Source: Trypanosoma brucei (taxonomy: Eukaryota). Taken from it: DNA of 64,000 bases. Shown here one piece after another: positions 33,430 through 54,284 of this stretch; the first letter of the stretch is position 1, and each line of letters starts with the position of its first letter. The stretch is taken from contig CM000208.1 in assembly GCA_000002445.1 (NCBI GenBank), forward strand, positions 2,112,001 through 2,176,000, read 5' to 3'. The notes under the pieces were generated by a model, which was not told the origin of the DNA, did not search any database, and was given only the letters and a program-made list of their open reading frames with translations. A program made the translations under genes and the position numbers.

Positions 33430-35187
33430 ATGGTATTCGACAAAGAGTTGAGGAATGCTGATAACTGGCGCCTTTACCACCTTTTAGAGTTGGAGCCACC
33501 AGTGACAGCAAAGCAGGTGCAATGGCTCTTCCGCAAGGTGACGTTACGCCACCACTTCTACCAGGCATATAATATACTGCGTGATGAGGAGCGGAAGAGC
33601 CTTTATGATTCACTGGGTGAAAACTTTGTTGGCTACCTTAACAGTGGCAGCTGGGGACCACTTATTCAACTACTCGGCGCTAAGGCAACAGTAGCCGTCT
33701 GCTGCGGCGTATGGGTTCTGATGATTCTGCTCATGTTGTTCTTTTTCTTGGCTGTTGGCGCCCGTGCGGATCGTCTTATCACGTGGACGTGGATGCAGGT
33801 GGCTGCTCCCGGTTTGACAGTAACTCTCATTGTGCTTATCGCGACGGCAGTGGCCATGGCGGTTAGCTTTTTCCTACGGCAGCCGAAAGAGGAAGGCATG
33901 CGATTCGTGGACCGTATTCCTGCGATCGGTAATTTTGTCGCTGCCTTCTTCTACTGCATCTTTGCCTTCATTGGGGCGTCAACGGTGGACAGTTATGCAC
34001 CTCAGCGGCATAACAACTACGCGCCATACTTTGCTTTGCCTATCCTGGCTGATGTCATATATTATCTTTCTACCATGGTGTGGCGGTGGCCCCGCAACCG
34101 GCGTCTGGACCTGGAGGTTGGCATGCAGGAGTCTAAACCCATCTTGTGGTATGCTCCGTGCGTGTTCGCCGGTCTTCACATCATTTTGTCAATCGTCCAA
34201 TGGGTCCTCCTTGCGCAGCGTGTTGACCGTATAATTAAAATCAGTTGGTACGCTGCCGCAAGCCCTATTGCCGTCCGTGCTGTGGTACGTGTTGCTGAAT
34301 CATGTATGACCAGTTTGGCGCGGCGTGCCATTGGTATTAAGAGCGTATTGGGCGTTGTCTTTGACACCTTAGGCTCTTTGTTCTTCAATGGTTTATTGCT
34401 TTGCTCCGTGTTCTTTACAGCAGCCCGCTTTGTTCGCGGGAGGAGGGTGGTTCCCCTGATTCTCGTCTTTTTACCGGTATACTTGGTGCTATTTTATCTG
34501 CTTTTCTGCACTATATACACGCTTTTTTACCTCCTGAGGAGAATCACGGAGAATGCGCGTGAGGAGCGGATGAATAACCTCAAGTGGACTCCTGTGGAGC
34601 CTCAGGCCGGCGACAAGGTGGTTCCGACGTTGCTGCGTGACTTTGATGCCTCTGAACGCATCATTTGGGATGACATTGATGATGAGAGCACTATGCAATA
34701 TTCCACCGGGTATGATGAAGTTACATTTGAAACTGAGGGTTATGATGACTATGAAACTGGTGAGGAGGAGGAGGAAGAGGAGGAAGAGGAATTATTTGCA
34801 CGAGGCGCTATGGTTTCTGGTTCCTCCGCACCTCAAACTGCACCTGCGCATCAGCGCAACGTTCCTTTATCACGTCAAGAAAGCGAATTGGTAATTGATG
34901 ATGATCACTCTGTGGTTACAATTGAGAGCAGTGAAGAGCAGCCCGTGAGGCGTCATCATGCATACCACGATCCCTATGAGTCAAGAACTGGCACAGGATT
35001 AGTAGGCCCACAAAGTGAAACGGAGTACACTCAATATGATACTAATAACGACGCTTATGAAGTGGGTGATACAAATTTAGAATCTGAATGCGCCTCCTCC
35101 GATACTTCCAGTAGTTTTGAAGCCTCCGGGACGGCTCATTCTGAAAGGCATCAGGACCCACCTTCTGAAAATGTGCGACGAAATTAG
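33430..35187 (+). CDS. multi-pass membrane protein with an N-terminal J-like (DnaJ-like, HPD-less) domain and an acidic C-terminal tail
   Basis: This is a 585-aa ORF. The N-terminal region LYHLLELEPPVTAKQVQWLFRKVTLRHHFYQAYNILRDEERKSLYD aligns with J-domain helices II-IV, but HPD is replaced by RHH. About 8 hydrophobic segments follow. The C-terminus contains the tract GEEEEEEEEEE. Confidence 0.7.
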   Translation: MVFDKELRNADNWRLYHLLELEPPVTAKQVQWLFRKVTLRHHFYQAYNILRDEERKSLYDSLGENFVGYLNSGSWGPLIQLLGAKATVAVCCGVWVLMILLMLFFFLAVGARADRLITWTWMQVAAPGLTVTLIVLIATAVAMAVSFFLRQPKEEGMRFVDRIPAIGNFVAAFFYCIFAFIGASTVDSYAPQRHNNYAPYFALPILADVIYYLSTMVWRWPRNRRLDLEVGMQESKPILWYAPCVFAGLHIILSIVQWVLLAQRVDRIIKISWYAAASPIAVRAVVRVAESCMTSLARRAIGIKSVLGVVFDTLGSLFFNGLLLCSVFFTAARFVRGRRVVPLILVFLPVYLVLFYLLFCTIYTLFYLLRRITENAREERMNNLKWTPVEPQAGDKVVPTLLRDFDASERIIWDDIDDESTMQYSTGYDEVTFETEGYDDYETGEEEEEEEEEELFARGAMVSGSSAPQTAPAHQRNVPLSRQESELVIDDDHSVVTIESSEEQPVRRHHAYHDPYESRTGTGLVGPQSETEYTQYDTNNDAYEVGDTNLESECASSDTSSSFEASGTAHSERHQDPPSENVRRN

Positions 35188-36009
35188 GAGTGACGCATCG
35201 TTTTCCCCTTTCTTTCCTTACAAAAGTGATAGAGAAGAGGAGGGAAAGGGTTGTTAAAAAATGAGTGTTGCGAAGTTATATCACATTCCATCAAAGGAGT
35301 GAGGGATCATTAGAATCATGCTTTAGTGATGGATCCCTTTCTACTTATTCAGCGAATATCTATATGTATATGAATACGTTTTTGTGTGTGCTTTCGTCGC
35401 TTATTATTGCGCAGTATTGCAACTTTCCTTCTTTTTTTTTTTCCATTGGTTTGTGTTGCTTCAGTGCTGCGTTAAGATGTGAAGCGATGAATGCTCAGAT
35501 GGCGGATAAGTTGTTGAGAAGTGTGAAAGCAAAGGCAAACTAAAAAAAAAAACAATAACAATAATATGAAATGCGTTGGTCTGGAGGTTACGCTTTATGT
35601 TCTGTCGGTTCTTCATCATTAGCATGAGGAGAAGTGAAGTAGCGGAAGAGGAAAAATAAAGAAATATTTGAGAGACGCGCATGCACTTGCAGGTATGTTA
35701 TTAATATGTGTTTGAAGGGATGATGTGGGGAGGGGAGATACGAGTGTCTATGTACAGTTAGTGCGAAAACAACGTCAGATGGTATTTATTTTTCTTTTTT
35801 TCCTCTCTTTTTTATCGCTCTTCTTTTGGAGGGAGAACATACGGCGATGGTGTATTTGTTCGTCTCTCTCTCTTTTTTTTTTTTTAAATCCCCTTCTTCT
35901 CTTCATCTTTTATGCAAGGACGCCTCAGCGATGTGTTAGTTTGTGTTGTCTTTTGTGCATTATTGTTGGGGCGAATTCATTTTCATACGTTTTTAGAGGG
36001 ACTAGAGGA

Positions 36010-36041
36010 ATCATCATCGTTATCATCATCATCATCATCAT
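36010..36041. repeat. (ATC)n trinucleotide repeat
   Basis: Direct reading shows atcatcgttatcatcatcatcatcatcat. Confidence 0.85.
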
Positions 36042-37352
36042 TTGTTTACATATATAAATACAAATACAAATATATTTGTCGAGATGCCTACGAGTGATGT
36101 GAAGTGATGAAAGGCTAAGAAAAGGAAAATAAAGAAAGGAAGAGAAGGAAAGAAGGAATGAATGAATGCGTTGCAAAGGCAAACAAAAGGAAGAATGGGA
36201 CGAAGGAAGTGACATTGATTTAGCTCCACAGCGAGTGTTTGTACGTTTGTGGCTTTTTCTTGGTGTTTCTCCATTCTTCTCTATTTTTCTTTTTTATGCT
36301 CATTTTCTTCTTTTTGTTATGCTTTGTTACGTTATTTTGCGTTACTTATATTTTTGTTGTTGTTGTTCGAAAAAAGATAAGAAAATCAACTTCACGGGTT
36401 AAGTTTCATTTTTATTTTCTTTCTGCGAATCTCCGTGCATGGCGTGAGGAGCTACCGAGTGGTGAGTAATTTACCTCCGGATTTGTTTTTACCGCGCCAG
36501 AGGGAGAATTGAGGCGGGGGGAAAATATTCGAATCGTCAGAATGAGAGGAGGGAAGTTAAGAGGGAGGCGATGAAAAATAAGAAGGGCAGCATCAAAACA
36601 AAAAAAAAGAGAAGAGAAATAAAATAAACAAAAATAATTAAAAGGAGAAAGGGGGAAAAAAATGAAAAGCAAAGGATTTGGGAGGAGGCTTGCTTATTTT
36701 TATATTTTTTCAGCTAGACTTCGACGGATGATAATATTGGTGCCATCATTGCCATATATGTGGTAGTGGTGCCTCTGTTCCATTTTGCGTGTAGATGATT
36801 GTGAATTTGAAAAGAAAAAAAGACGATGCGATGCAACACGTTTAGAGGTCTTTTTCTTTTCTTTCTTTTTTTTTTTGTGGCGTCATGCTATTTTCCATTT
36901 TCTTTCCAAGTTGATGCAATGGAAAGCGGATGCGGTGGAGAATTTCTCCCCTGTTTTTTTTGTTTTTTTATATCGCAGGGTGTGGTGTGTTGCTCGTCTT
37001 CCCCTTTAGTATTGTTTTGTTTCCAGTGAACGAAGCAGTAGCGGGGGGGGGGAGAGAAGCGAAAAAAAAGACATTGAAAAAAAACAATAATTGGTCTAAT
37101 CTGCTTTATTGTTTTTTTTATTTTGTTGTGAAATCATCATTTAACCGCTGCATTCAAATTCCTTGCACTTTTGTTTTCTTCATTCCGTCTTTTCTTCTCC
37201 ATTCCTTTGGGCTTACATCCCATCCTGTTTTTTTTTAACTCGTTTAATTGTGTCAGAGGGTACTTGTGGAGGATATGATGGGAATGTAAACATGCAGATG
37301 GCAAGAAAAGGGAGTACTACAGATTTCTGACAAATAAATATATATAAGTATA

Positions 37353-37360
<8 letters not shown>

Positions 37361-37398
<38 letters not shown>

Positions 37399-37416
37399 TT
37401 ATTTATTTATTTATTT
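37361..37416. repeat. (AT)17 immediately followed by (TTTA)5 compound microsatellite
   Basis: Direct reading shows atatatat...atat followed by ttatttatttatttatttattt. Confidence 0.9.
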
Positions 37417-37838
37417 GCGTAAATATCAATGATGTAAAATCATTTAATAAATGTGGTGAAAATAATTCCAGTCCTGTGGAGGAAAAGAAAAAAAAAGAGA
37501 TGAATTTAGGTGATGTAGAAGTTCTGAGGGAAGGAAAGAAGGGAAGGTTTGGAATGATGGAAAAGGAAGAGAGAAAGAAAGGAAATTGAACGAGAGAAAG
37601 AGGAACAGTTAGAGTTTTTTTTTTTTTCAGAAGAAAAAGGAGAAGAGGATGTTGAAGCGATTGTTAAAAGTGTATATATATATATATTTATGTATTACAC
37701 CCCAGTCACTTTGGACTTTCAATACTGTTGCATTGTGCTTATTCATTCGCTGCCATTACGTAGTGGTTTCATACTTGCTTTAATATACTGCCATCCCCCT
37801 CTGTTTTTCTTTTCTCTCACCCCCCTTTCTGGTTGCTC

Positions 37839-37842
<4 letters not shown>

Positions 37843-37870
<28 letters not shown>
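37843..37870. repeat. (TA)14 microsatellite
   Basis: Direct reading; a shorter (TA)8 lies at 37673-37688. Confidence 0.9.
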
Positions 37871-37873
<3 letters not shown>

Positions 37874-38088
37874 CAAACATTTCTATTTCTATGTGCGATT
37901 CCATCGTGACGTTCAGCGCAATCAGTTCACGAGTGGTAGCTGACTACCGCAACCCCTTTTTTTGTTGCACGACTCATTTAGTGTTTGAATTGCATTTCCC
38001 CCCCTTTGTGTGTGTATGTGTCATGTCATTTACCCATTTGTATCCTTTTCTTTTTGTTTTTAATGCTTCCCTCCCCCCGGTCTCATAA

Positions 38089-38943: not shown

Positions 38944-39855
38944 GCATGATGTCGGGTTGTGCGTTGAAAGGGCCGTTAGAACTTGATGACCTTCACTCTC
39001 CTGCCTTTCCCTCGTTCATGCAATTCGTCGGCACTGGCCCCTCTGATACAGAGTGACTTTACGTGAAAATGGCGGCAAGGTCCATGAGAGACTCCAGTTT
39101 TTGTTGCTTCAGTTGGATGTTCGTCTTTCTTGAGGGGGTTTTCTTTTCTATAAAATTGCACTCCTTTGGTTGTTTCTCCTCTTGGAATGGCCGTTCCGCA
39201 TTCTTTTTTTTTTTTTACCAGGGGTGTGGCTATATATCATTCATCGTGTAGGTCAACTAATGTGTGGGCTGCGGTGCTTTCGCGTCTTATGCGCATATAT
39301 TCGTGTGTGCACAGACGATGGAATGCAACAGCATGGTGCCACTTTTAGTTTGAATTTCGTTTTGGCTAACTGGGATCATGACATCGTTATTTTCTTTGTG
39401 CTCTTTATATCATTTATGTTGCTCTTTTTTCCACTCACCCATTTCCTGGAAACGCTTCGTATGATTAGTATCAAAACCACCGTCACCGCCAAAACGAACG
39501 TGGTGCGTGAAGGAAAGGGTTGAAGAAGAACAACAACAATAAAACAAAACCGAAGGAGAAGGAACGAAGTGCATCCCTTGCCTGTGCAAGAACTGCACCC
39601 TCCAGAGTCTAAAAACTAGCTAACAGAAGTGCAGGCGTGAGAAATAGGTTGCACACCGCGGCGCAGTCCACAAAAGAGAAGGAAGCGGAGAGGTAAATAC
39701 ACACATATATATATATATATATCTAGATAGATATTCTTCTCTCCATATATCTACTTAGTTGCATAGCTGATTGCTTATATTTTAATTGTTTTCCCCCCTC
39801 TACTCTCCTTATTTTTCCCCATCCCCACTCCCTTTGACGGCGCTTATTATTACTC

Positions 39856-41613
39856 ATGCCCGTCCATGCCCATGCCATGTGGAATTCTCTTTGCTTCTAC
39901 AAGGCGTATTTACCACCAGAGGACACCGTAAGGGCAACTGGCTACGTGGTATTGGCTCTGGAGGAACCGGAAGAGGAGGTTTCGCCGGTACCGCGTGAGA
40001 ACTCAAACGAGAGGGGCGTATCGCCATCGCTGTCGCATTTGGATTGGCCAGATGATGGCGCTTTATTTCCAGGGGACCGATTGACCGCCGGCGCAGCGAC
40101 GAACAGCTCCCAGCTAAGCGATTTACCACCATCCCATGAGAGGTCAGTGATGGATAGGGACACCAAACTTCAGTTTTTTCTTTTCCGAAAGGAAGACGTC
40201 TCGCCGCCGTATATGAAGGGGATGCTCGGTAAAATACGTCATTGTTTTTTGCTCTGTTTGCAAGGCGATCGTGGGAACCCATGCCACTGCCACAGGGCAC
40301 ACCTTTTGAACGAAGATGCCTGGCGTTTGAAGCTCAGTTCATTTGATTTTTCAACTCTGTGTGTGTCATCCAACTTTTCGTTACGGTACATAGACGTCAC
40401 TCACGTCCGTCCGACCGCGGGGTTTTTGTTCACCTGTGGTCTGCTTCACGAGCGAATCATTGTCGCGGCGCAACCTATTCTCTGCCGCTACAATGACAAG
40501 TGCCGCTACGGTTCGCAGTGCCTTTTCGTTCATGCTGACATTGGTGGTGACAATCTCACAAAAACGACAGCCGCCACCCCCCTGAGAAATTTGTTGCCCC
40601 CACAGGAGGGTCTCGACACTTTTTTGGCTCAGTTGGAGGAGGTGGAGCTCCAAACTGTAGGGGATGTGCAACGGCTGAGCACAAAGGCATTTGACGCTTT
40701 TGTCGGCGGATGTGAACCACAATGGACCCCATTATGGCTAAACATATCTATTTTCCGTGAAATTCAACCCAAGGCATCGCTGGAAAGTGTGCTAATTTCT
40801 TTTCCTGGTGTTACTGCGCCGGTAGTTCTGCCGCCAAATCTGACAAACGTACTTTCGTTGTTGGACATGTCTCAGAAAGATTTCTACAAACTGAAACTCA
40901 CCATCAATGTACAGGCAGCGTGCGAAAAGATACGGGCCCGCTTTTGGTCTAGCAGAGATTACAGGACGTTAGACCTCAAAAGGGAAGGTGCGAAATCCTT
41001 TTTCACGAACATCACTTTAGAAATTTTACAGTTTCGATCAACAATGGCGGACTGTAGTTGGCGCAAGAAGGATCCAATGCGGCAGGTGGTGACCTCGCTG
41101 ATGACGTACGTGGATCACAAGAAGTGTCACTGCAATGTCACTTGCGGGAGCCGAAGGCACTGGTCGATGCATAAGCCAGCACTATCTTCCAACGGAAATG
41201 GGATGAGTAATGCCACATTTCCCGACCATTCCTGGTGTACATGTCCGCGTTCTACTGTGATGGCTGTCAACTATGAGCTCAGCACACCCAGCGGCTCTCG
41301 ATGCTCGGAGCAAAATGCACTGGGTAAATTGGCATCCATGGGCCTCCCCACATGTGCTGTACGGGAAGTATTTGTGCATGGGGAACATCAGGGATCAAAA
41401 AAGGACCCTAATCCGTTGTTTCCATGCGGTGTCTGTGAGAATATGTTGCGGAAGGTTGCCCACGATGTATTGGAAATTCATGGTGGAGACGTTATGTTGT
41501 ACATGTACGACTCCACTCACAACCCCAAGAGACTTGTTTATCTTCCCATAACCGAAATTTCTTATAGAGACGACATGGGGTTTAGGGAGTTTGTGGCGGA
41601 TCTTCATGAGTAG
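39856..41613 (+). CDS. putative CCCH zinc-knuckle protein with a C-terminal cytidine/dCMP-deaminase-like zinc motif
   Basis: This is a 585-aa ORF. A C-x5-C-x5-C-x3-H motif, LCRYNDKCRYGSQCLFVHAD, is at nt about 40480-40540. The C-terminal region SRCSEQNALGKLASMG...(38 aa)...PCGVCENMLRKV (nt about 41293-41450) matches the deaminase-superfamily zinc signature C/H-[AS]-E-x2-A-[LI] followed by PCxxC. The start codon is uncertain because the 39856 ATG sits inside a polypyrimidine tract and the next in-frame Met is at about 40150. Confidence 0.65.
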   Translation: MPVHAHAMWNSLCFYKAYLPPEDTVRATGYVVLALEEPEEEVSPVPRENSNERGVSPSLSHLDWPDDGALFPGDRLTAGAATNSSQLSDLPPSHERSVMDRDTKLQFFLFRKEDVSPPYMKGMLGKIRHCFLLCLQGDRGNPCHCHRAHLLNEDAWRLKLSSFDFSTLCVSSNFSLRYIDVTHVRPTAGFLFTCGLLHERIIVAAQPILCRYNDKCRYGSQCLFVHADIGGDNLTKTTAATPLRNLLPPQEGLDTFLAQLEEVELQTVGDVQRLSTKAFDAFVGGCEPQWTPLWLNISIFREIQPKASLESVLISFPGVTAPVVLPPNLTNVLSLLDMSQKDFYKLKLTINVQAACEKIRARFWSSRDYRTLDLKREGAKSFFTNITLEILQFRSTMADCSWRKKDPMRQVVTSLMTYVDHKKCHCNVTCGSRRHWSMHKPALSSNGNGMSNATFPDHSWCTCPRSTVMAVNYELSTPSGSRCSEQNALGKLASMGLPTCAVREVFVHGEHQGSKKDPNPLFPCGVCENMLRKVAHDVLEIHGGDVMLYMYDSTHNPKRLVYLPITEISYRDDMGFREFVADLHE

Positions 41614-45373: not shown

Positions 45374-46240
45374 ATGTCATCGCTTGCCGAGAGACTCGTG
45401 CAACAGTTGCTGAAATTTCATCAACGTGGAGCTGAGCTCGAACAGGAGCAGAAGACGCTTGCGGAGGAGGAGAAATGCAACCAAACTCTCCAGGAACGCC
45501 TCAAACAAATGCAAGAACAAGTGCAGAAGGTGCGGGAAATTCGTGCGGTACTTAACGAACACAACCGTGCGGCGGAGGAAAAGTATGAGCAGGCAATAAA
45601 AGATGATGAGGCAAAGCGGGCGCTGATGTCAGAGGAATTGCAGGCAACTTTATCAGAGGTGAATTCATATGCAGAGGAAATTGCGCACATGGAAGCAAAA
45701 GCAGCGCAAGAGAATAAGCTACTGAAGGAACAACTTGAGATATACACCAGATTTCACTTGGATGGGCAGGACAAATACAATGAAATCATGCGTTCCAGGG
45801 AGCAGGAATACGCCAAGTTGGAGGCGAAGAAGGAAGCGGACGCCGCCCGGAAACCGCAGCTTCTGGCCGAATTATCGGAAGAGAATGAGCGTTTCCTTCA
45901 AACTCGCAAGGAGGAAAAGGAACTTGAAGTTCTAATGGATGGTTGGGTGGCACGTGTAACGGAGCTTCAAGAAAGGTTTTTAAAAGCAAGAAGGTTCTTT
46001 GAAAGTTTTAAGGAAGAAAAGGAAAGACATGTGAAGCGGATTCGATCACTTGAAAGTGAAAAAACCGTGTTGTTGGCGCGGGTGGAAAGATGTAGAGCAG
46101 AGCGTGACAAGGAGCAAGCAAAGGCGAAGGCATTCGAGGAAAAGGTCATCACACAAAAGAAACAGATAGAGAAACTTAGTGCCGTTGCACACATGCTCGA
46201 GTCCGGAAGCTTAGCAGAGAGTACGGATGCGGCAACATAG
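45374..46240 (+). CDS. coiled-coil protein, hypothetical
   Basis: This is a 288-aa ORF that is almost entirely charged heptad-type sequence (EQEQKTLAEEEKCNQTLQERLKQMQEQVQKVREIRAV...). It sits after a polypyrimidine-rich upstream region (45100-45260). Confidence 0.65.
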   Translation: MSSLAERLVQQLLKFHQRGAELEQEQKTLAEEEKCNQTLQERLKQMQEQVQKVREIRAVLNEHNRAAEEKYEQAIKDDEAKRALMSEELQATLSEVNSYAEEIAHMEAKAAQENKLLKEQLEIYTRFHLDGQDKYNEIMRSREQEYAKLEAKKEADAARKPQLLAELSEENERFLQTRKEEKELEVLMDGWVARVTELQERFLKARRFFESFKEEKERHVKRIRSLESEKTVLLARVERCRAERDKEQAKAKAFEEKVITQKKQIEKLSAVAHMLESGSLAESTDAAT

Positions 46241-46747
46241 AGAGTTTTCCTGTTTCCCTTTCTCTTTTTTATATTTTTATTTCTGCCTTTTTTTGTTTTG
46301 TCCTGCCCGCGTGTGTGTGTGTGTGTGTGTTTTTGTTTTTTTGTTCTTCCATGTTTCGGACGTCTATCGGTGTGTATGGTAAAAAGATATGTTGTAACCG
46401 CACATCGTAATGACCTTGACATATTCACCAGGTGCATTCGCCCGTGCCGTTTGTGTTTTGAGTTTCCACAGCTAATTGTGAAGAAATAGGGTTTAATAAC
46501 GGTTATGGTGTCCACCACCTGTCTGGTGGGCCCCACGTGGGTGGCCCCTCAATTAGTTATTACTATTACTATTATTAATATTGTTGATGTCATTTCTTCT
46601 CATTTTGTTGTCTGGGTTTCGTCCCTGTGTTCCGTTTTACCTTGTCGCTGTGGTTGTATACACGCTTTGCATTGCGGCCTTCTTTTTGTTTTTTTTTGTC
46701 TTCACGTGACTCCTCACCTCAAAAAAAAAAATACAAGGCAATTTAAA

Positions 46748-48217
46748 ATGTACTCGGATAGCGAGAGCATTATTAGTGAGTTTGACGACTTTACTTCTGA
46801 TGAGGACCCAGAAATGGATGACTTTGATCGTTTGCTCGATGAACAGGTAGAGCATCAGGAGGATTCTCTTTACACGTTGCGTCTCTCCTATTTGCGGCTT
46901 TTTGAGGATGAAGATGGCCCACTTCGATCAGCATTCCCCGACTTATATGTTCCATCTAAGGAGATTCTTCTTGACTTGAGTAACGTGTTAAGTTGTGAGG
47001 GGGATTGTGAGGAGGATGGGGAAAATGTGGAATATGAAGGAGAAGATATTGACTGGGAGGCTGCAGCGAAAGATCATGAGGCATTTGATAAACACGGGGA
47101 AGAGGGGGGTGATGATGGAGATGCGGAGGAAAATCATGACGTGCGACTACAACCGGAAAACGGGTGTGCGGAAACCACTTTGAGAACTGTTGGGAAACCA
47201 AGCCCTGCCACAAAATTCATGGACAAGCACCGAGGAAATTCTTTACTTGTTGAGGTGGGGTTAACAGTGAGTCGCAGCGAACTCAGGGAGCGTCATGTGG
47301 CGCAGTACCCAGATATTGACTTTGTTGTGGGTTACATTCAAAGGGAACCCACAGGTTGGGCACTACTAATGACCGAAGATCCCAACACGGTAGAAGGGAT
47401 CAAGTCATATTACCCTTCTCACCGTTTGGCAACCGAAAGTGATTACGTTATGTTTTTCAGGTCTACACACCCCAAAAAGACAGGTTTTGTGACTATCCCT
47501 AATCCTCCGCAGAGGCAACAAAAGAAGGGACGGAGGCAATATATCAGGCAGATGCAAAGTTCTGCCGCTCTATCTGCTCACATCGAGGCGATGGGAGGAA
47601 TGCAAAATGCTATTTTTGTGTTCCTTGACGTGGAGGCAGCTGTGGTTCAAAAGAATTCTGTCCCCCTTCCGCTGGAGATTGCGCTGGTTCCGAGTGGAGG
47701 TGATCATTCCTTCCAACCTTTCCATTGTTTCCTTCATCCAGGCGTGATAGAAAATTCCCAAGTAGCATTAGGACTAAGTTGCGGTGCAATTCCCTCAAGT
47801 CACCACGTACCACTAAACAATGTCACGTTTCTTCGCCGTGACTACACGAAAGTTGCTGAGGAGATTTCCCAGTTTTTGTCTTGCGAGCGGGTAGTGCTTA
47901 TCAACAAGGGTTCTCTTATGGATGTTCAGGCTCTGCGGTGGGTATTTGGAGCTGCTCGGATTGCAGAAAGCAGTAACATGCCCATACCCAAACTGGAGGA
48001 TATTGCTTGTTTTGATATCCAAGCCTTAAAGAAACTACTCGCACAGGGTGAATGGCGGGAAACTAAAGGTGATGCGGCGGAGACTCATGGTGAATTCTGT
48101 TGGTACCATGCCGGTATGCAAGAAGGGTTGAGGAGAGAAATTGTTGGATATACGGAGTCGCACTGTGCATTAAAAGATGCTCAGGTAATTCATGGCGTGG
48201 TGCAGAGGTATCTTTAA
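46748..48217 (+). CDS. DEDDh-family 3'-5' exonuclease with an acidic N-terminal extension
   Basis: The frame is open from 46505, but the first 81 codons translate a pyrimidine-rich tract. The Met at 46748 (MYSDSESIISEFDDF) is the likely start. Exo motif I is IFVFLDVEAAV (nt about 47612-47645). Exo motif II is VLINKGSLMDVQALRWVF (nt about 47890-47945). Exo motif III, with H-x4-D, is YTESHCALKDAQVIH (nt about 48150-48190). Confidence 0.8.
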   Translation: MYSDSESIISEFDDFTSDEDPEMDDFDRLLDEQVEHQEDSLYTLRLSYLRLFEDEDGPLRSAFPDLYVPSKEILLDLSNVLSCEGDCEEDGENVEYEGEDIDWEAAAKDHEAFDKHGEEGGDDGDAEENHDVRLQPENGCAETTLRTVGKPSPATKFMDKHRGNSLLVEVGLTVSRSELRERHVAQYPDIDFVVGYIQREPTGWALLMTEDPNTVEGIKSYYPSHRLATESDYVMFFRSTHPKKTGFVTIPNPPQRQQKKGRRQYIRQMQSSAALSAHIEAMGGMQNAIFVFLDVEAAVVQKNSVPLPLEIALVPSGGDHSFQPFHCFLHPGVIENSQVALGLSCGAIPSSHHVPLNNVTFLRRDYTKVAEEISQFLSCERVVLINKGSLMDVQALRWVFGAARIAESSNMPIPKLEDIACFDIQALKKLLAQGEWRETKGDAAETHGEFCWYHAGMQEGLRREIVGYTESHCALKDAQVIHGVVQRYL

Positions 48218-52985: not shown

Positions 52986-54284
52986 ATGAACGCGCCTCAC
53001 AGAACTCCCGGCAGCAATTCCGCTGGGAATACCGGCCCCGGGTCACACCGGTCCCGCTGCATTAGTTTAGATCCACGGGTTCATGAACACATTCCACCGC
53101 ATTTCCTACCGAATTTGGCCAAATACAAATATAGCGGTAGTGACTCTGGCATAATTTCGAACTATGTCATGCAGCCATACTGGAACTTTATCGTAAGTCT
53201 TGTTCCCATGACTGTCGCGCCCAACGCCATTACCGTCACGGGGTTTGTGATGTGCCTCTCTTCTGCGCTTTTGGTTATGTTCTTTTACTACTTCGGAAAT
53301 GCCGAGTATCCTTGTTGGGTGTGGCTGTATGCCGTCATATGCCTTTTTGCGTACCAGACACTTGATGCAATAGATGGAAAACAGGCCCGTCGTACTAATA
53401 CGGGGTCACCACTTGGTGAATTGTTTGACCATGGGTGTGACGTCATATTAACACCTTTTGTACAAATGATGATATGCTGTGCTCTAAATACGCCTCCCTG
53501 TGTTACCTTTGTGTACATCACACTCTCATCATGCGCAGTCTTTGGTGCCATCTGGGAGCAGTTTGTCACCGGTACACTTGACTTCGGTTACGTCAATGGT
53601 CCCACTGACGGCATATTGCTCGCGTGCGGTATTTTTCTCATCACAGCCATCATGTCACCAGCCGTGTGGGATACTCAAGTGGCTGGACCTTACGAGGTGC
53701 CGTTGCCGTCATGGTTAGGCAGTTGCGGTGGCTCGTTCGTGATTGGATCAGTGCGGAGTATGTTATTTACCTTTTATGTGGTATCTGGGACTCTGACACT
53801 GCTAACAAACATATTGCATGTTTTAAAAAGGCCAAACATTCAGAAACCTGGTATGGCCGTGACAACTGCCCTACCGGTTGTCTGCTTGCTGGTACTTCAC
53901 GTCTGGATGTATCTGGTTTACCGCCCCATCCATGAGAAGTATCCATATGCACTGGAGTTGAGTTTTCACGTTTTGATATCTTACACTGCCACACGCATGA
54001 CTGTTTCCAGGTTGTGCGCAATGCCGTTTAACCTTTTCAGTGGGTTGTTTATCATTACACTACTCTTCACTGTTGCTCCGCTCTTCATCCACACCTACTT
54101 GCCTCTTGCTGAGGAAAAATATGTATTGCCATCACTTGGCTCCGCCACAGTGGCGCTTGCAGTACTGGGGTTCTGGCAGTACTTCCATATGATTCTTTCC
54201 GTTATCACACAGATGGCGTACTTTCTTCGCATTTCGGTTTTTTCTATTACATCGCGTCATGACTCCAACACGAAGTGGGAGTAG
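52986..54284 (+). CDS. CDP-alcohol phosphotransferase (choline/ethanolamine phosphotransferase, CEPT/EPT-type)
   Basis: This is a 432-aa ORF. The family signature D-G-x2-A-R-x8-G-x3-G-x3-D-x3-D is present as DAIDGKQARRTNTGSPLGELFDHGCD (nt about 53366-53443). Eight to ten hydrophobic segments are typical of CPT1/EPT1. The upstream sequence is a poly-T tract (52955-52968) followed by AG. Confidence 0.9.
   Translation: MNAPHRTPGSNSAGNTGPGSHRSRCISLDPRVHEHIPPHFLPNLAKYKYSGSDSGIISNYVMQPYWNFIVSLVPMTVAPNAITVTGFVMCLSSALLVMFFYYFGNAEYPCWVWLYAVICLFAYQTLDAIDGKQARRTNTGSPLGELFDHGCDVILTPFVQMMICCALNTPPCVTFVYITLSSCAVFGAIWEQFVTGTLDFGYVNGPTDGILLACGIFLITAIMSPAVWDTQVAGPYEVPLPSWLGSCGGSFVIGSVRSMLFTFYVVSGTLTLLTNILHVLKRPNIQKPGMAVTTALPVVCLLVLHVWMYLVYRPIHEKYPYALELSFHVLISYTATRMTVSRLCAMPFNLFSGLFIITLLFTVAPLFIHTYLPLAEEKYVLPSLGSATVALAVLGFWQYFHMILSVITQMAYFLRISVFSITSRHDSNTKWE

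What the first reader, a model, noticed from the sequence alone, without database searches (positions are those of the whole stretch)
39856..41613. Zinc-knuckle protein fused to a cytidine-deaminase-like zinc centre
The C-terminal 120 aa contain CSEQNAL, then 38 aa later PCGVCENML. This matches the zinc-coordinating signature of the CDA/dCMP-deaminase/TadA/APOBEC superfamily (C/H-A/S-E-x2-A-L/I, then PCxxC). The Glu of CSE would be the catalytic proton shuttle. Upstream, LCRYNDKCRYGSQCLFVH is a C-x5-C-x5-C-x3-H knuckle of the CCCH RNA-binding type. Known kinetoplastid deaminases (CDA and the tRNA deaminases ADAT2/3) are much smaller and, as far as I recall, lack a CCCH module. A 585-aa protein combining a nucleic-acid-binding zinc finger with a deaminase fold would be a candidate nucleic-acid base-editing enzyme. 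The CSE-to-PC spacing (38 aa) is longer than in canonical CDAs, so this could be a degenerate or pseudo-deaminase.
Basis: partly seen in the sequence, partly recalled or inferred. Interest (0 to 1): 0.7.

Follow-up and report, generated by a model that had tools for sequence, protein, structure and literature searches.

The report

Summary
Window 39856-41613 (+) is a 585-aa ORF with CSEQNAL (C483/E485), PCGVCENML (P523/C524/C527) and the CCCH knuckle C210/C216/C222/H226.

The deaminase reading is confirmed in four ways:
- Pfam PF14421 "LmjF365940 subfamily CDD/CDA-like deaminase", E = 7e-53.
- C-S-E-Q-N and P-C-G-V-C are invariant in 60 orthologues.
- The AlphaFold2 model (pLDDT 81.6) has the deaminase core.
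- The best PDB fold matches are all tetrameric cytidine deaminases or blasticidin-S deaminase (TM up to 0.72).

It is not novel. Length, mass (65.89 kDa) and residue numbering match T. brucei Tb927.10.8850.
- Kramer 2010 listed it as a CCCH protein.
- Iyer 2011 described it as two CCCH fingers plus a CDA-like deaminase with a C2C2 insert, and proposed mRNA editing or DNA mutagenesis.
- Paris 2021 listed it as a candidate tRNA-Trp editase.
- Moro-Bulnes 2025 characterised it: cytosolic, found in stress granules; overexpression lowers CTP/dCTP and raises UTP/dTTP; recombinant protein was insoluble, so the substrate is undetermined.

- The CDA ribose-binding N-x-E motif is invariant and in register.
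- The same architecture occurs in diplonemids.
- A weak SAM/HhH-like helical region lies between the fingers and the deaminase.

Interest is low.

The parts
39856..41613 (+). Complete ORF of 585 aa plus stop. It is Tb927.10.8850 (TbCDA-like), the orthologue of L. major LmjF36.5940.
   Evidence: ORF list. It is 99% identical to the T. b. gambiense protein P0001. Computed mass 65.89 kDa, length 585 aa and positions C134/C143/C145/H149/C483/E485/P523/C524/C527 are identical to those published for Tb927.10.8850.
39856..39963 (+). Conserved N-terminal segment (residues 1-36: helices plus a strand). Its conservation supports the annotated start codon.
   Evidence: The consensus M...W....FYKGYLP..E......YVVLA is conserved across orthologues. 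pLDDT is 91-95 for residues 11-40.
40000..40158 (+). Poorly conserved, predicted disordered linker (residues 49-101).
   Evidence: pLDDT is below 50 for residues 49-101. There is no consensus in A1.
40255..40302 (+). First, non-canonical CCCH knuckle: C134-x8-C143-x-C145-x3-H149.
   Evidence: C134, C143 and H149 are present in 57/60 and C145 in 56/60 orthologues; nearly all the rest are gaps in truncated sequences. Described by Iyer 2011 and Moro-Bulnes 2025.
40483..40533 (+). Second CCCH knuckle: C210-x5-C216-x5-C222-x3-H226.
   Evidence: It is present in 57/60 orthologues. Pfam zf-CCCH_2 scores E = 0.0016, 19.3 bits, below the 25.8-bit cut-off. It aligns weakly to the tristetraprolin-type tandem fingers 1m9o/9y10. 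Kramer 2010 supplement lists it with spacing 5,5.
40582..40941 (+). All-helical middle region (residues 243-362). It holds two similar segments, TVGDVQRLSTKAFDAF and NVLSLLDMSQKDFYKL. The resemblance to SAM / (HhH)2 / RNA-polymerase alpha-CTD domains is weak.
40966..41610 (+). CDA-type deaminase domain (residues 371-585). Elements: helix 382-397, strand 411-418, insert, strand 466-471, helix 484-494 (CSE), strand 502-510, helix 525-542 (PCGVC), strands 547-551 and 559-564.
   Evidence: Pfam PF14421 E = 7.2e-53, 180 bits against a 27.1-bit cut-off. AF2 secondary structure. Foldseek against PDB: 50 of 50 listed hits are cytidine or blasticidin-S deaminases, prob 1.0, TMt up to 0.72.
41125..41244 (+). 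C2C2 insert between strands 1 and 2 (C424, C426 ... C461, C463). It is a presumed extra structural zinc site, with a variable, low-confidence loop in between.
   Evidence: C424, C461 and C463 are invariant and C426 is present in 59/60. pLDDT is below 50 for residues 430-451. Iyer 2011 describes this insert.
41269..41277 (+). N472-Y-E474, in register with N54-x-E56 of human CDA.
   Evidence: N472 is invariant and E474 is present in at least 90%. The N-to-C spacing is 11 in both proteins. The same N-x-E-x8-C-x-E pattern is seen in distant PF14421 members that lack CCCH fingers. The role of these residues as ribose 3'-OH ligands comes from my own knowledge of CDA crystal structures and was not verified here.
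41302..41322 (+). CSEQNAL: C483 is the first zinc ligand and E485 the catalytic proton shuttle. Q486 replaces the Arg of canonical CAER.
   Evidence: C483, S484, E485, Q486 and N487 are invariant in 60/60. hhalign places this stretch on CAERTAI of human CDA.
41422..41436 (+). PCGVC: C524 and C527 are the second and third zinc ligands, at the N-terminus of helix 3.
   Evidence: P523, C524, G525, V526 and C527 are invariant in 60/60. hhalign places this stretch on PCGAC of human CDA.
41554..41556 (+). E567, the conserved Glu at the end of strand 5, a hallmark of the CDD/CDA clade.
   Evidence: Present in 59/60. It aligns with the Glu of human CDA in ...VQEL.... Iyer 2011's table lists 'E at the end of Str-5' for CDD/CDA.

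Best explanation
The ORF is Trypanosoma brucei Tb927.10.8850 (TbCDA-like), the kinetoplastid form of the LmjF36.5940 branch of the CDD/CDA deaminase clade. This identity is essentially certain.

Mechanism, part shown and part inferred. The C-terminal ~215 residues fold as a cytidine-deaminase-type domain. In it C483, C524 and C527 hold a catalytic zinc and its water. E485 shuttles the proton. Cytosine C4 is attacked to give uracil plus ammonia. N472 and E474 sit where CDA binds the ribose 3'-OH. This favours a substrate with a free 3'-OH, that is cytidine or deoxycytidine or their 5'-phosphates, possibly the 3'-terminal residue of an RNA, rather than an internal residue of a polynucleotide.

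An inserted C2C2 knuckle, two N-terminal CCCH fingers and a helical SAM/HhH-like region do not take part in catalysis. They most likely tether the enzyme to single-stranded RNA or mRNP granules. The enzyme would then deaminate cytidine nucleos(t)ides in the cytosol, plausibly those released by mRNA decay, and so tune the CTP/UTP and dCTP/dTTP pools, as the published overexpression and RNAi data indicate.
For: Identity:
- The ORF is 99% identical to the T. b. gambiense orthologue.
- It is 585 aa and 65.89 kDa, and every numbered Cys/His/Glu matches the published description of Tb927.10.8850.
- The gene is listed with LmjF36.5940 in the Kramer 2010 supplement.

Fold and catalytic site:
- PF14421 scores 180 bits against a 27.1-bit cut-off.
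- AF2 gives pLDDT 81.6, with helices carrying CSE and PCGVC in a strand-helix-strand core.
- Foldseek top hits are exclusively CDA or blasticidin-S deaminase.
- hhalign aligns CSE, PCxxC and E567 to human CDA.
- CSEQN, PCGVC and N472 are invariant, and E474 and E567 are present in at least 90%, of 60 orthologues from trypanosomatids, bodonids and diplonemids.

Substrate class:
- N-x-E-x8-C-x-E is in register with human CDA.
- It is kept in CCCH-less relatives.
- One relative, from Alexandrium, is fused to a HAD-family hydrolase, a fold typical of nucleotidases and phosphatases.

Published experiments:
- Overexpression lowers CTP/dCTP and raises UTP/dTTP.
- RNAi raises CMP and lowers dTTP.
- The protein is cytosolic and granular, and joins stress granules on starvation.
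Against: - No enzymatic activity has ever been measured. The recombinant protein was insoluble and the authors state that the substrate is unidentified.
- Changes in nucleotide pools could be indirect.
- Q486 replaces the Arg of CAER and E528 replaces the Arg of PCGxCR. The family also scores far below the tetrameric-CDA equivalog cut-off (17.8 against 113.65 bits). Substrate specificity could therefore differ from CDA.
- Three nucleic-acid-type modules are an odd accessory for a plain salvage enzyme.
- Yeast CDD1, a bona fide CDA fold, is annotated as an 'orphan C to U editase', so a CDA fold does not exclude RNA as a substrate.
- The ribose-ligand role of N/E rests on my recollection of CDA crystal structures and was not verified with a tool.
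Confidence: 0.6

Rival explanations
1. It is a polynucleotide-editing deaminase. The CCCH fingers and the SAM/HhH-like region position the CDA-like domain on single-stranded mRNA, tRNA or DNA, and it converts specific C to U in situ. proposed in 2011. The nucleotide-pool changes would then be secondary.
For: - Two conserved CCCH knuckles, with a weak match to tristetraprolin-type RNA-binding fingers.
- Published stress-granule and perinuclear RBP-like localisation.
- Overexpression causes gamma-H2A foci and DNA damage, which a DNA- or RNA-mutating activity would also give.
- Iyer 2011 drew the same inference.
- The CDA-fold protein yeast CDD1 is titled an orphan C-to-U editase in PDB entry 1r5t.
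Against: - There were no Pfam hits at E<=10 to APOBEC, TadA-type or DYW families.
- The CDA ribose-3'-OH motif N-x-E is invariant. In CDAs this contact needs a free 3'-OH (own knowledge).
- The authors of the 2025 study state that no cytosolic or nuclear C-to-U mRNA editing is known in T. brucei, that the protein is not nuclear or mitochondrial, and that the tRNA deaminases are already assigned.
- The mitochondrial tRNA-Trp C34-to-U enzyme is a different gene, Tb927.3.4530.
Confidence: 0.2
2. It is a catalytically dead pseudo-deaminase that acts only as an RNA-binding or scaffold protein of mRNP granules.
For: - The E485-to-P523 loop is 7 residues longer than in human CDA.
- The Arg residues of CAER and PCGxCR are replaced by Gln and Glu.
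- No activity has been demonstrated.
- Sequence similarity to solved CDAs is too weak for phmmer or hmmsearch to detect.
Against: - All three zinc ligands, the catalytic Glu, and the N and E ribose positions are invariant or nearly so across kinetoplastids and diplonemids. Such conservation is not expected of a relic site.
- Overexpression shifts C-nucleotides to U/T-nucleotides in the direction expected for an active deaminase.
Confidence: 0.07
3. The motifs are chance matches in a protein unrelated to deaminases.
For: None beyond the shortness of the motifs.
Against: - Pfam E = 7e-53.
- Foldseek prob 1.0 to CDAs.
- 60/60 conservation of the key residues.
- A single occurrence of the composite pattern in the window.
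Confidence: 0.01

Closest known systems
TbCDA-like, Tb927.10.8850 (Moro-Bulnes et al., Sci Rep 2025, PMC12064671); LmjF36.5940-like family, Pfam PF14421 (Iyer et al., NAR 2011, PMC3239186)
   Same: It is this protein. Length, mass, chromosome-10 single-copy description, CCCH spacing and all numbered residues match. The Pfam family hit is far above cut-off. The architecture of two CCCH fingers plus a deaminase with a C2C2 insert is as Iyer described.
   Different: There are no differences of substance. The architecture also occurs in diplonemids (Diplonema papillatum, D. ambulator, Flectonema neradi), so 'kinetoplastid-specific' is too narrow. There is a weak SAM/HhH-like helical region at residues 243-362. 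The N-x-E ribose motif is in register with CDA.
Homotetrameric cytidine deaminase (CDD/CDA, EC 3.5.4.5; e.g. human CDA 1mq0, B. subtilis 1jtk; T. brucei CDA Tb927.9.3000)
   Same: It shares the fold (TMt up to 0.72), the Cys3 zinc site with C-x-E and PCxxC, the N-x-E-x8-C-x-E register and the Glu after strand 5.
   Different: - It is about 4 times larger, with CCCH fingers, a helical region and a C2C2 insert.
- CAER becomes CSEQ and PCGxCR becomes PCGVCE.
- The strand3-helix3 loop is 7 residues longer.
- TIGR01354 scores 17.8 against a 113.65-bit cut-off, so it is not an equivalog.
- Activity and oligomeric state are unknown.
TbmCDAT, Tb927.3.4530 (Paris et al., RNA Biol 2021, PMC8677022), the mitochondrial tRNA-Trp C34-to-U deaminase
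   Same: It is a kinetoplastid protein with C/H-x-E and PCxxC motifs. Tb927.10.8850 was on the same 17-gene candidate list.
   Different: It is a different gene on a different chromosome, with a mitochondrial location. The paper attributes tRNA-Trp editing to Tb927.3.4530. TbCDA-like is reported as cytosolic.
Tristetraprolin/TIS11-type CCCH RNA-binding fingers
   Same: It has the C-x-C-x-C-x3-H knuckle with aromatic and Gly positions (CRYGSQCLFVH against CRYGAKCQFAH).
   Different: The spacing is C-x5-C-x5-C-x3-H rather than C-x8-C-x5-C-x3-H. The fingers are single and separated, not a tandem pair. Scores are below Pfam cut-offs. RNA binding is untested.

Membership tests
LmjF36.5940-like branch of CDD/CDA deaminases (Pfam PF14421) | Profile score above Pfam's gathering threshold | tested here: met
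   180 bits against a 27.1-bit cut-off, E = 7.2e-53. All 60 homologues also carry PF14421.
LmjF36.5940-like branch of CDD/CDA deaminases (Pfam PF14421) | C-x-E on helix 2, PCxxC on helix 3 and Glu at the end of strand 5 (Iyer 2011 table) | tested here: met
   C483/E485 lie at helix 484-494 and P523-C527 at helix 525-542. E567 follows strand 559-564. They are invariant or 59/60 and are aligned to human CDA.
LmjF36.5940-like branch of CDD/CDA deaminases (Pfam PF14421) | Kinetoplastid form: two N-terminal CCCH fingers and a C2C2 insert between strands 1 and 2 | tested here: met
   C134/C143/C145/H149 and C210/C216/C222/H226 are present in 56-57 of 60. C424/C461/C463 are 60/60 and C426 is 59/60, lying between strands 411-418 and 466-471. 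Zinc binding itself was not tested.
LmjF36.5940-like branch of CDD/CDA deaminases (Pfam PF14421) | Deaminase fold (three-layer alpha/beta/alpha core) | tested here: met
   AF2 pLDDT 81.6. Foldseek against PDB: all 50 listed matches are CDA or blasticidin-S deaminases, prob 0.99-1.0, TMt 0.41-0.72.
Orthologue of Tb927.10.8850 (TbCDA-like) | Same sequence properties as published | tested here: met
   585 aa and 65.89 kDa. C134/C143/C145/H149 and C483/E485/P523/C524/C527 are at the published positions. My computed pI of 6.74 differs from the published 7.13, which I attribute to a different pK set.
Canonical tetrameric cytidine deaminase (TIGR01354, EC 3.5.4.5) | Equivalog profile score above the NCBIfam cut-off | tested here: not met
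   17.8 bits against 113.65. phmmer and hmmsearch against PDB sequences do not recover CDAs at a significant E-value.
Canonical tetrameric cytidine deaminase (TIGR01354, EC 3.5.4.5) | Ribose-binding N-x-E located 11 residues before the zinc Cys | tested here: met
   N472-x-E474-x8-C483 against N54-x-E56-x8-C65 in human CDA. The human sequence was checked against 1mq0. The functional role of N/E comes from my own knowledge.
Canonical tetrameric cytidine deaminase (TIGR01354, EC 3.5.4.5) | Arg in CAER and in PCGxCR | tested here: not met
   Q486 (60/60) and E528 (59/60) replace them.
Canonical tetrameric cytidine deaminase (TIGR01354, EC 3.5.4.5) | Cytidine/deoxycytidine deaminase activity; homotetramer | not testable with these tools
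   Published attempts failed because the recombinant protein was insoluble.
Polynucleotide deaminases (APOBEC/AID, TadA/ADAT2, DYW) | Profile match to any of these families | tested here: not met
   The Pfam scan at E<=10 returned only PF14421 and weak CCCH models.
Polynucleotide deaminases (APOBEC/AID, TadA/ADAT2, DYW) | In situ deamination of C or A in RNA or DNA | not testable with these tools
   This needs biochemical assays or sequencing of overexpressing and depleted cells.
C3H1 (CCCH) zinc-finger RNA-binding domains | Profile score above the Pfam cut-off | tested here: not met
   zf-CCCH_2 19.3 against 25.8 bits; zf_CCCH_4 16.2 against 29.
C3H1 (CCCH) zinc-finger RNA-binding domains | C-x(4-15)-C-x(4-6)-C-x3-H pattern conserved in orthologues | tested here: met
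   C-x5-C-x5-C-x3-H in 57/60. Listed in the Kramer 2010 CCCH catalogue.

The most novel reading that the evidence does not exclude
TbCDA-like is an RNA-directed cytidine deaminase of cytosolic mRNP granules. Its CCCH fingers and SAM/HhH-like region would guide it to deaminate cytidines on RNA, either at 3' ends during decay or at internal sites. The published nucleotide-pool shifts and DNA damage would then be downstream consequences. That would be the first cytosolic C-to-U RNA-modifying activity on mRNA in Euglenozoa, and it would predate the kinetoplastid-diplonemid split.
Probability: 0.15. Interest if true: 0.7.

Novelty: already known. Interest (0 to 1): 0.15.

Why it matters
As a discovery it does not matter, because the gene, its domain architecture and the editing hypothesis are all in print (2010, 2011, 2021, 2025).

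What remains open is the substrate. Trypanosomatids lack canonical CMP/dCMP deaminases. This is a parasite-lineage protein absent from mammals, and its overexpression is toxic. Knowing whether it acts on free cytidine nucleotides or on RNA therefore bears on pyrimidine homeostasis, and on whether Euglenozoa have an unrecognised cytosolic RNA-deamination activity.

The invariant CDA-type ribose motif argues for a substrate with a free 3'-OH. The presence of the same architecture in diplonemids shows that the fusion is ancient.

Tried and rejected
- Sequence searches of PDB with the full protein, with the 395-585 domain and with the 60-sequence profile found no deaminase at a significant E-value. 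They returned only weak CCCH matches and one E = 0.68 hit to EfCDA. The relationship needed Pfam, hhalign and fold comparison.
- A second 585-aa ORF at 33430-35187 was tested as a possible paralogue. It is unrelated (best BLASTP E = 0.1).
- A CCCH-pattern match at nt 47167 lies in a different reading frame from ORF 46505-48217 and is absent from that protein, so it is a chance match.
- Literature searches for open-access text giving the CDA ribose ligands (Asn54/Glu56, Asn89/Glu91) found nothing. One query was malformed. That point therefore rests on my own knowledge.
- The diplonemid mitoproteome paper does not discuss the Diplonema homologue DIPPA_24778.
- Zinc-site distances could not be measured, because model coordinates are not exposed to the scripting environment.
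- NCBIfam gave only a sub-threshold tetrameric-CDA hit.
Full report
**Observation.** The window carries an ATG-to-stop ORF of 585 aa at exactly 39856..41613 on the + strand.
- CSEQNAL is residues 483-489.
- PCGVCENML is residues 523-531.
- LCRYNDKCRYGSQCLFVH is residues 209-226, with spacing C-x5-C-x5-C-x3-H.
- The composite deaminase pattern occurs once in the six-frame translation of the whole 64-kb window.

**What it is.** Four lines of evidence agree.
- Pfam gives a single strong hit: PF14421, 'LmjF365940 subfamily CDD/CDA-like deaminase', 180 bits against a cut-off of 27.1, E = 7e-53. Sub-threshold CCCH models hit residues 209-227. NCBIfam gives only a sub-threshold hit to tetrameric cytidine deaminase (17.8 against 113.65 bits).
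- A search of 5.8 billion proteins returned 60 homologues, all carrying PF14421. The best is 99% identical, from T. brucei gambiense. The others come from Trypanosoma, Leishmania, Leptomonas, Phytomonas, Strigomonas, Bodo, Neobodo and Diplonema.
- In the 60-sequence alignment, C483-S-E-Q-N487, P523-C-G-V-C527, N472, Y473, C424, C461 and C463 are invariant. C426, E474, E567 and both CCCH sets (C134/C143/C145/H149 and C210/C216/C222/H226) are present in at least 90%, and nearly all the exceptions are truncated sequences.
- AlphaFold2 with this alignment gives mean pLDDT 81.6. The order of elements is helix 382-397, strand 411-418, a Cys-rich insert, strand 466-471, helix 484-494 (starting at CSE), strand 502-510, helix 525-542 (starting at PCGVC), and strands 547-551 and 559-564. 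Foldseek against the PDB returns only homotetrameric cytidine deaminases and blasticidin-S deaminases among its 50 listed hits, with probability 0.99-1.0 and target-normalised TM-score up to 0.72 for B. subtilis CDA.
- hhalign of the domain profile against human CDA aligns CSE with CAE, PCGVC with PCGAC, and E567 with the Glu after strand 5. I recalled the human CDA sequence from memory and verified it against 1mq0.

**It is already known.** The literature identifies the gene as Tb927.10.8850.
- Moro-Bulnes et al. (Sci Rep 2025, PMC12064671) describe 'TbCDA-like' as a single-copy chromosome-10 gene of 585 aa and 65.89 kDa. They report a C-x5-C-x5-C-x3-H finger, a second CCCH (C134/C143/C145/H149) and a deaminase motif (C483, E485, P523, C524, C527). 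My translation has exactly these residues at these positions and a computed mass of 65.89 kDa.
- Kramer et al. 2010 list Tb927.10.8850/LmjF36.5940 in their CCCH catalogue with spacing 5,5, and mention a cytidine deaminase domain among CCCH proteins.
- Iyer et al. 2011 defined the LmjF36.5940-like branch.
- Paris et al. 2021 put the gene on their 17-candidate list for the mitochondrial tRNA-Trp C34-to-U editase. The enzyme turned out to be Tb927.3.4530.

**What is known experimentally.**
- Overexpression lowers CTP and dCTP and raises UTP and dTTP. It is cytotoxic, with gamma-H2A accumulation.
- RNAi raises CMP and lowers dTTP.
- The protein is cytosolic and granular, not mitochondrial or nuclear, and partly joins stress granules on starvation.
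- Recombinant protein was insoluble, so no substrate has been identified.
- The authors propose deamination of cytidine derivatives, perhaps those released by RNA decay.

**Mechanism.** Two things are shown: a CDA-type fold, and an intact, invariant Cys3-Glu catalytic centre. The rest is inferred.
- Zinc-activated water would attack C4 of a cytosine ring, with E485 as the proton shuttle.
- N472-x-E474 lies 11 residues before the zinc Cys, exactly as N54-x-E56 does in human CDA. It is conserved even in distant CCCH-less PF14421 proteins.
- In CDA crystal structures these two residues hold the ribose 3'-OH. This is my own knowledge, and I could not find an open-access source. If the role holds here, the substrate has a free 3'-OH. 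That means a nucleoside, a 5'-nucleotide or a 3'-terminal RNA residue, not an internal residue of a chain.
- One distant relative from the dinoflagellate Alexandrium is fused to a HAD-family hydrolase. This is a weak hint towards nucleotide metabolism.
- Differences from CDA are Q486 for the Arg of CAER, E528 for the Arg of PCGxCR, a 7-residue longer loop and the C2C2 insert.
- The accessory modules most plausibly localise the enzyme on RNA or mRNPs.

I put about 0.6 on 'RNA-tethered deaminase of free cytidine nucleos(t)ides', about 0.2 on in situ polynucleotide editing and under 0.1 on a pseudo-enzyme.

**Small additions beyond the literature.**
- The full architecture (both CCCH fingers, the C2C2 insert and the deaminase) is present in diplonemids: Diplonema papillatum DIPPA_24778, D. 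ambulator and Flectonema neradi. The protein is therefore euglenozoan (kinetoplastids plus diplonemids) rather than strictly kinetoplastid-specific.
- An exhaustive HMMER scan of 1.84 billion representatives with residues 395-585 found only 59 relatives. About 30 are long proteins whose motif regions match the kinetoplastid/diplonemid form. About 25 are shorter PF14421 proteins without CCCH patterns. This is in line with Iyer's description.

**Context.** All sizeable ORFs in the window lie on the + strand, as in a trypanosome polycistronic unit. A pyrimidine-rich tract and an (AT)9 repeat precede the start codon. Neighbouring ORFs are mostly without Pfam domains.

**Verdict.** This is a correct reading of the sequence by the first stage. 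It rediscovers a known, named and partly characterised protein, so novelty is 'already known' and interest is low. The only open question of note is the substrate.

Noticed in passing
window 1-64000: Nearly all ORFs of 200 aa or more (19 of 21) are on the + strand. The two on the - strand overlap + strand ORFs. This fits a single trypanosome polycistronic transcription unit.
   Followed up: no
window 33430-35187 (+): A second ORF of exactly 585 aa lies 4.7 kb upstream. It is unrelated to the deaminase protein (best BLASTP E = 0.1) and has no Pfam domain. The equal length is a coincidence.
   Followed up: yes
window 36001-38000: An AT-rich intergenic stretch (GC 0.35 against about 0.47 elsewhere) carries (ATAT)n at 37334-37414 and (TA)14 at 37842-37870.
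   Followed up: no
window 39705-39722 and 39789-39835: An (AT)9 microsatellite and a pyrimidine-rich tract lie just upstream of the ATG at 39856. These are the kind of signals used for trans-splicing in trypanosomes. The splice site itself was not mapped.
   Followed up: no
[not shown]
   Followed up: partly
P0055, P0059, P0060 (diplonemid proteins): Diplonemids (Flectonema neradi, Diplonema ambulator, D. papillatum DIPPA_24778) carry the same architecture of two CCCH fingers, the C2C2 insert and the deaminase. The published label 'kinetoplastid-specific' is therefore too narrow.
   Followed up: partly
P0091 (Alexandrium monilatum, 418 aa): A distant PF14421 deaminase is fused to a C-terminal HAD-family hydrolase domain. 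Several metagenomic relatives also show weak, sub-threshold TerB-like N-terminal hits.
   Followed up: no
window 45374-46240 (+) and 52986-54284 (+): Neighbouring ORFs have Pfam hits to Taxilin (E = 7e-13) and CDP-alcohol phosphatidyltransferase (E = 3e-11). Eight other neighbours have no Pfam family.
   Followed up: no
window 39856-41613 compared with P0001: The T. b. gambiense orthologue is 3 residues longer, with an indel near residues 36-38. It also differs at P91L, I386V and P441S. None of these touches a zinc or catalytic residue.
   Followed up: partly
window 47167 (frame 0, + strand): A CCCH-like pattern CGNHFENCWETKPCHKIH lies out of frame with ORF 46505-48217 and is absent from its protein, so it is a chance match.
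   Followed up: yes
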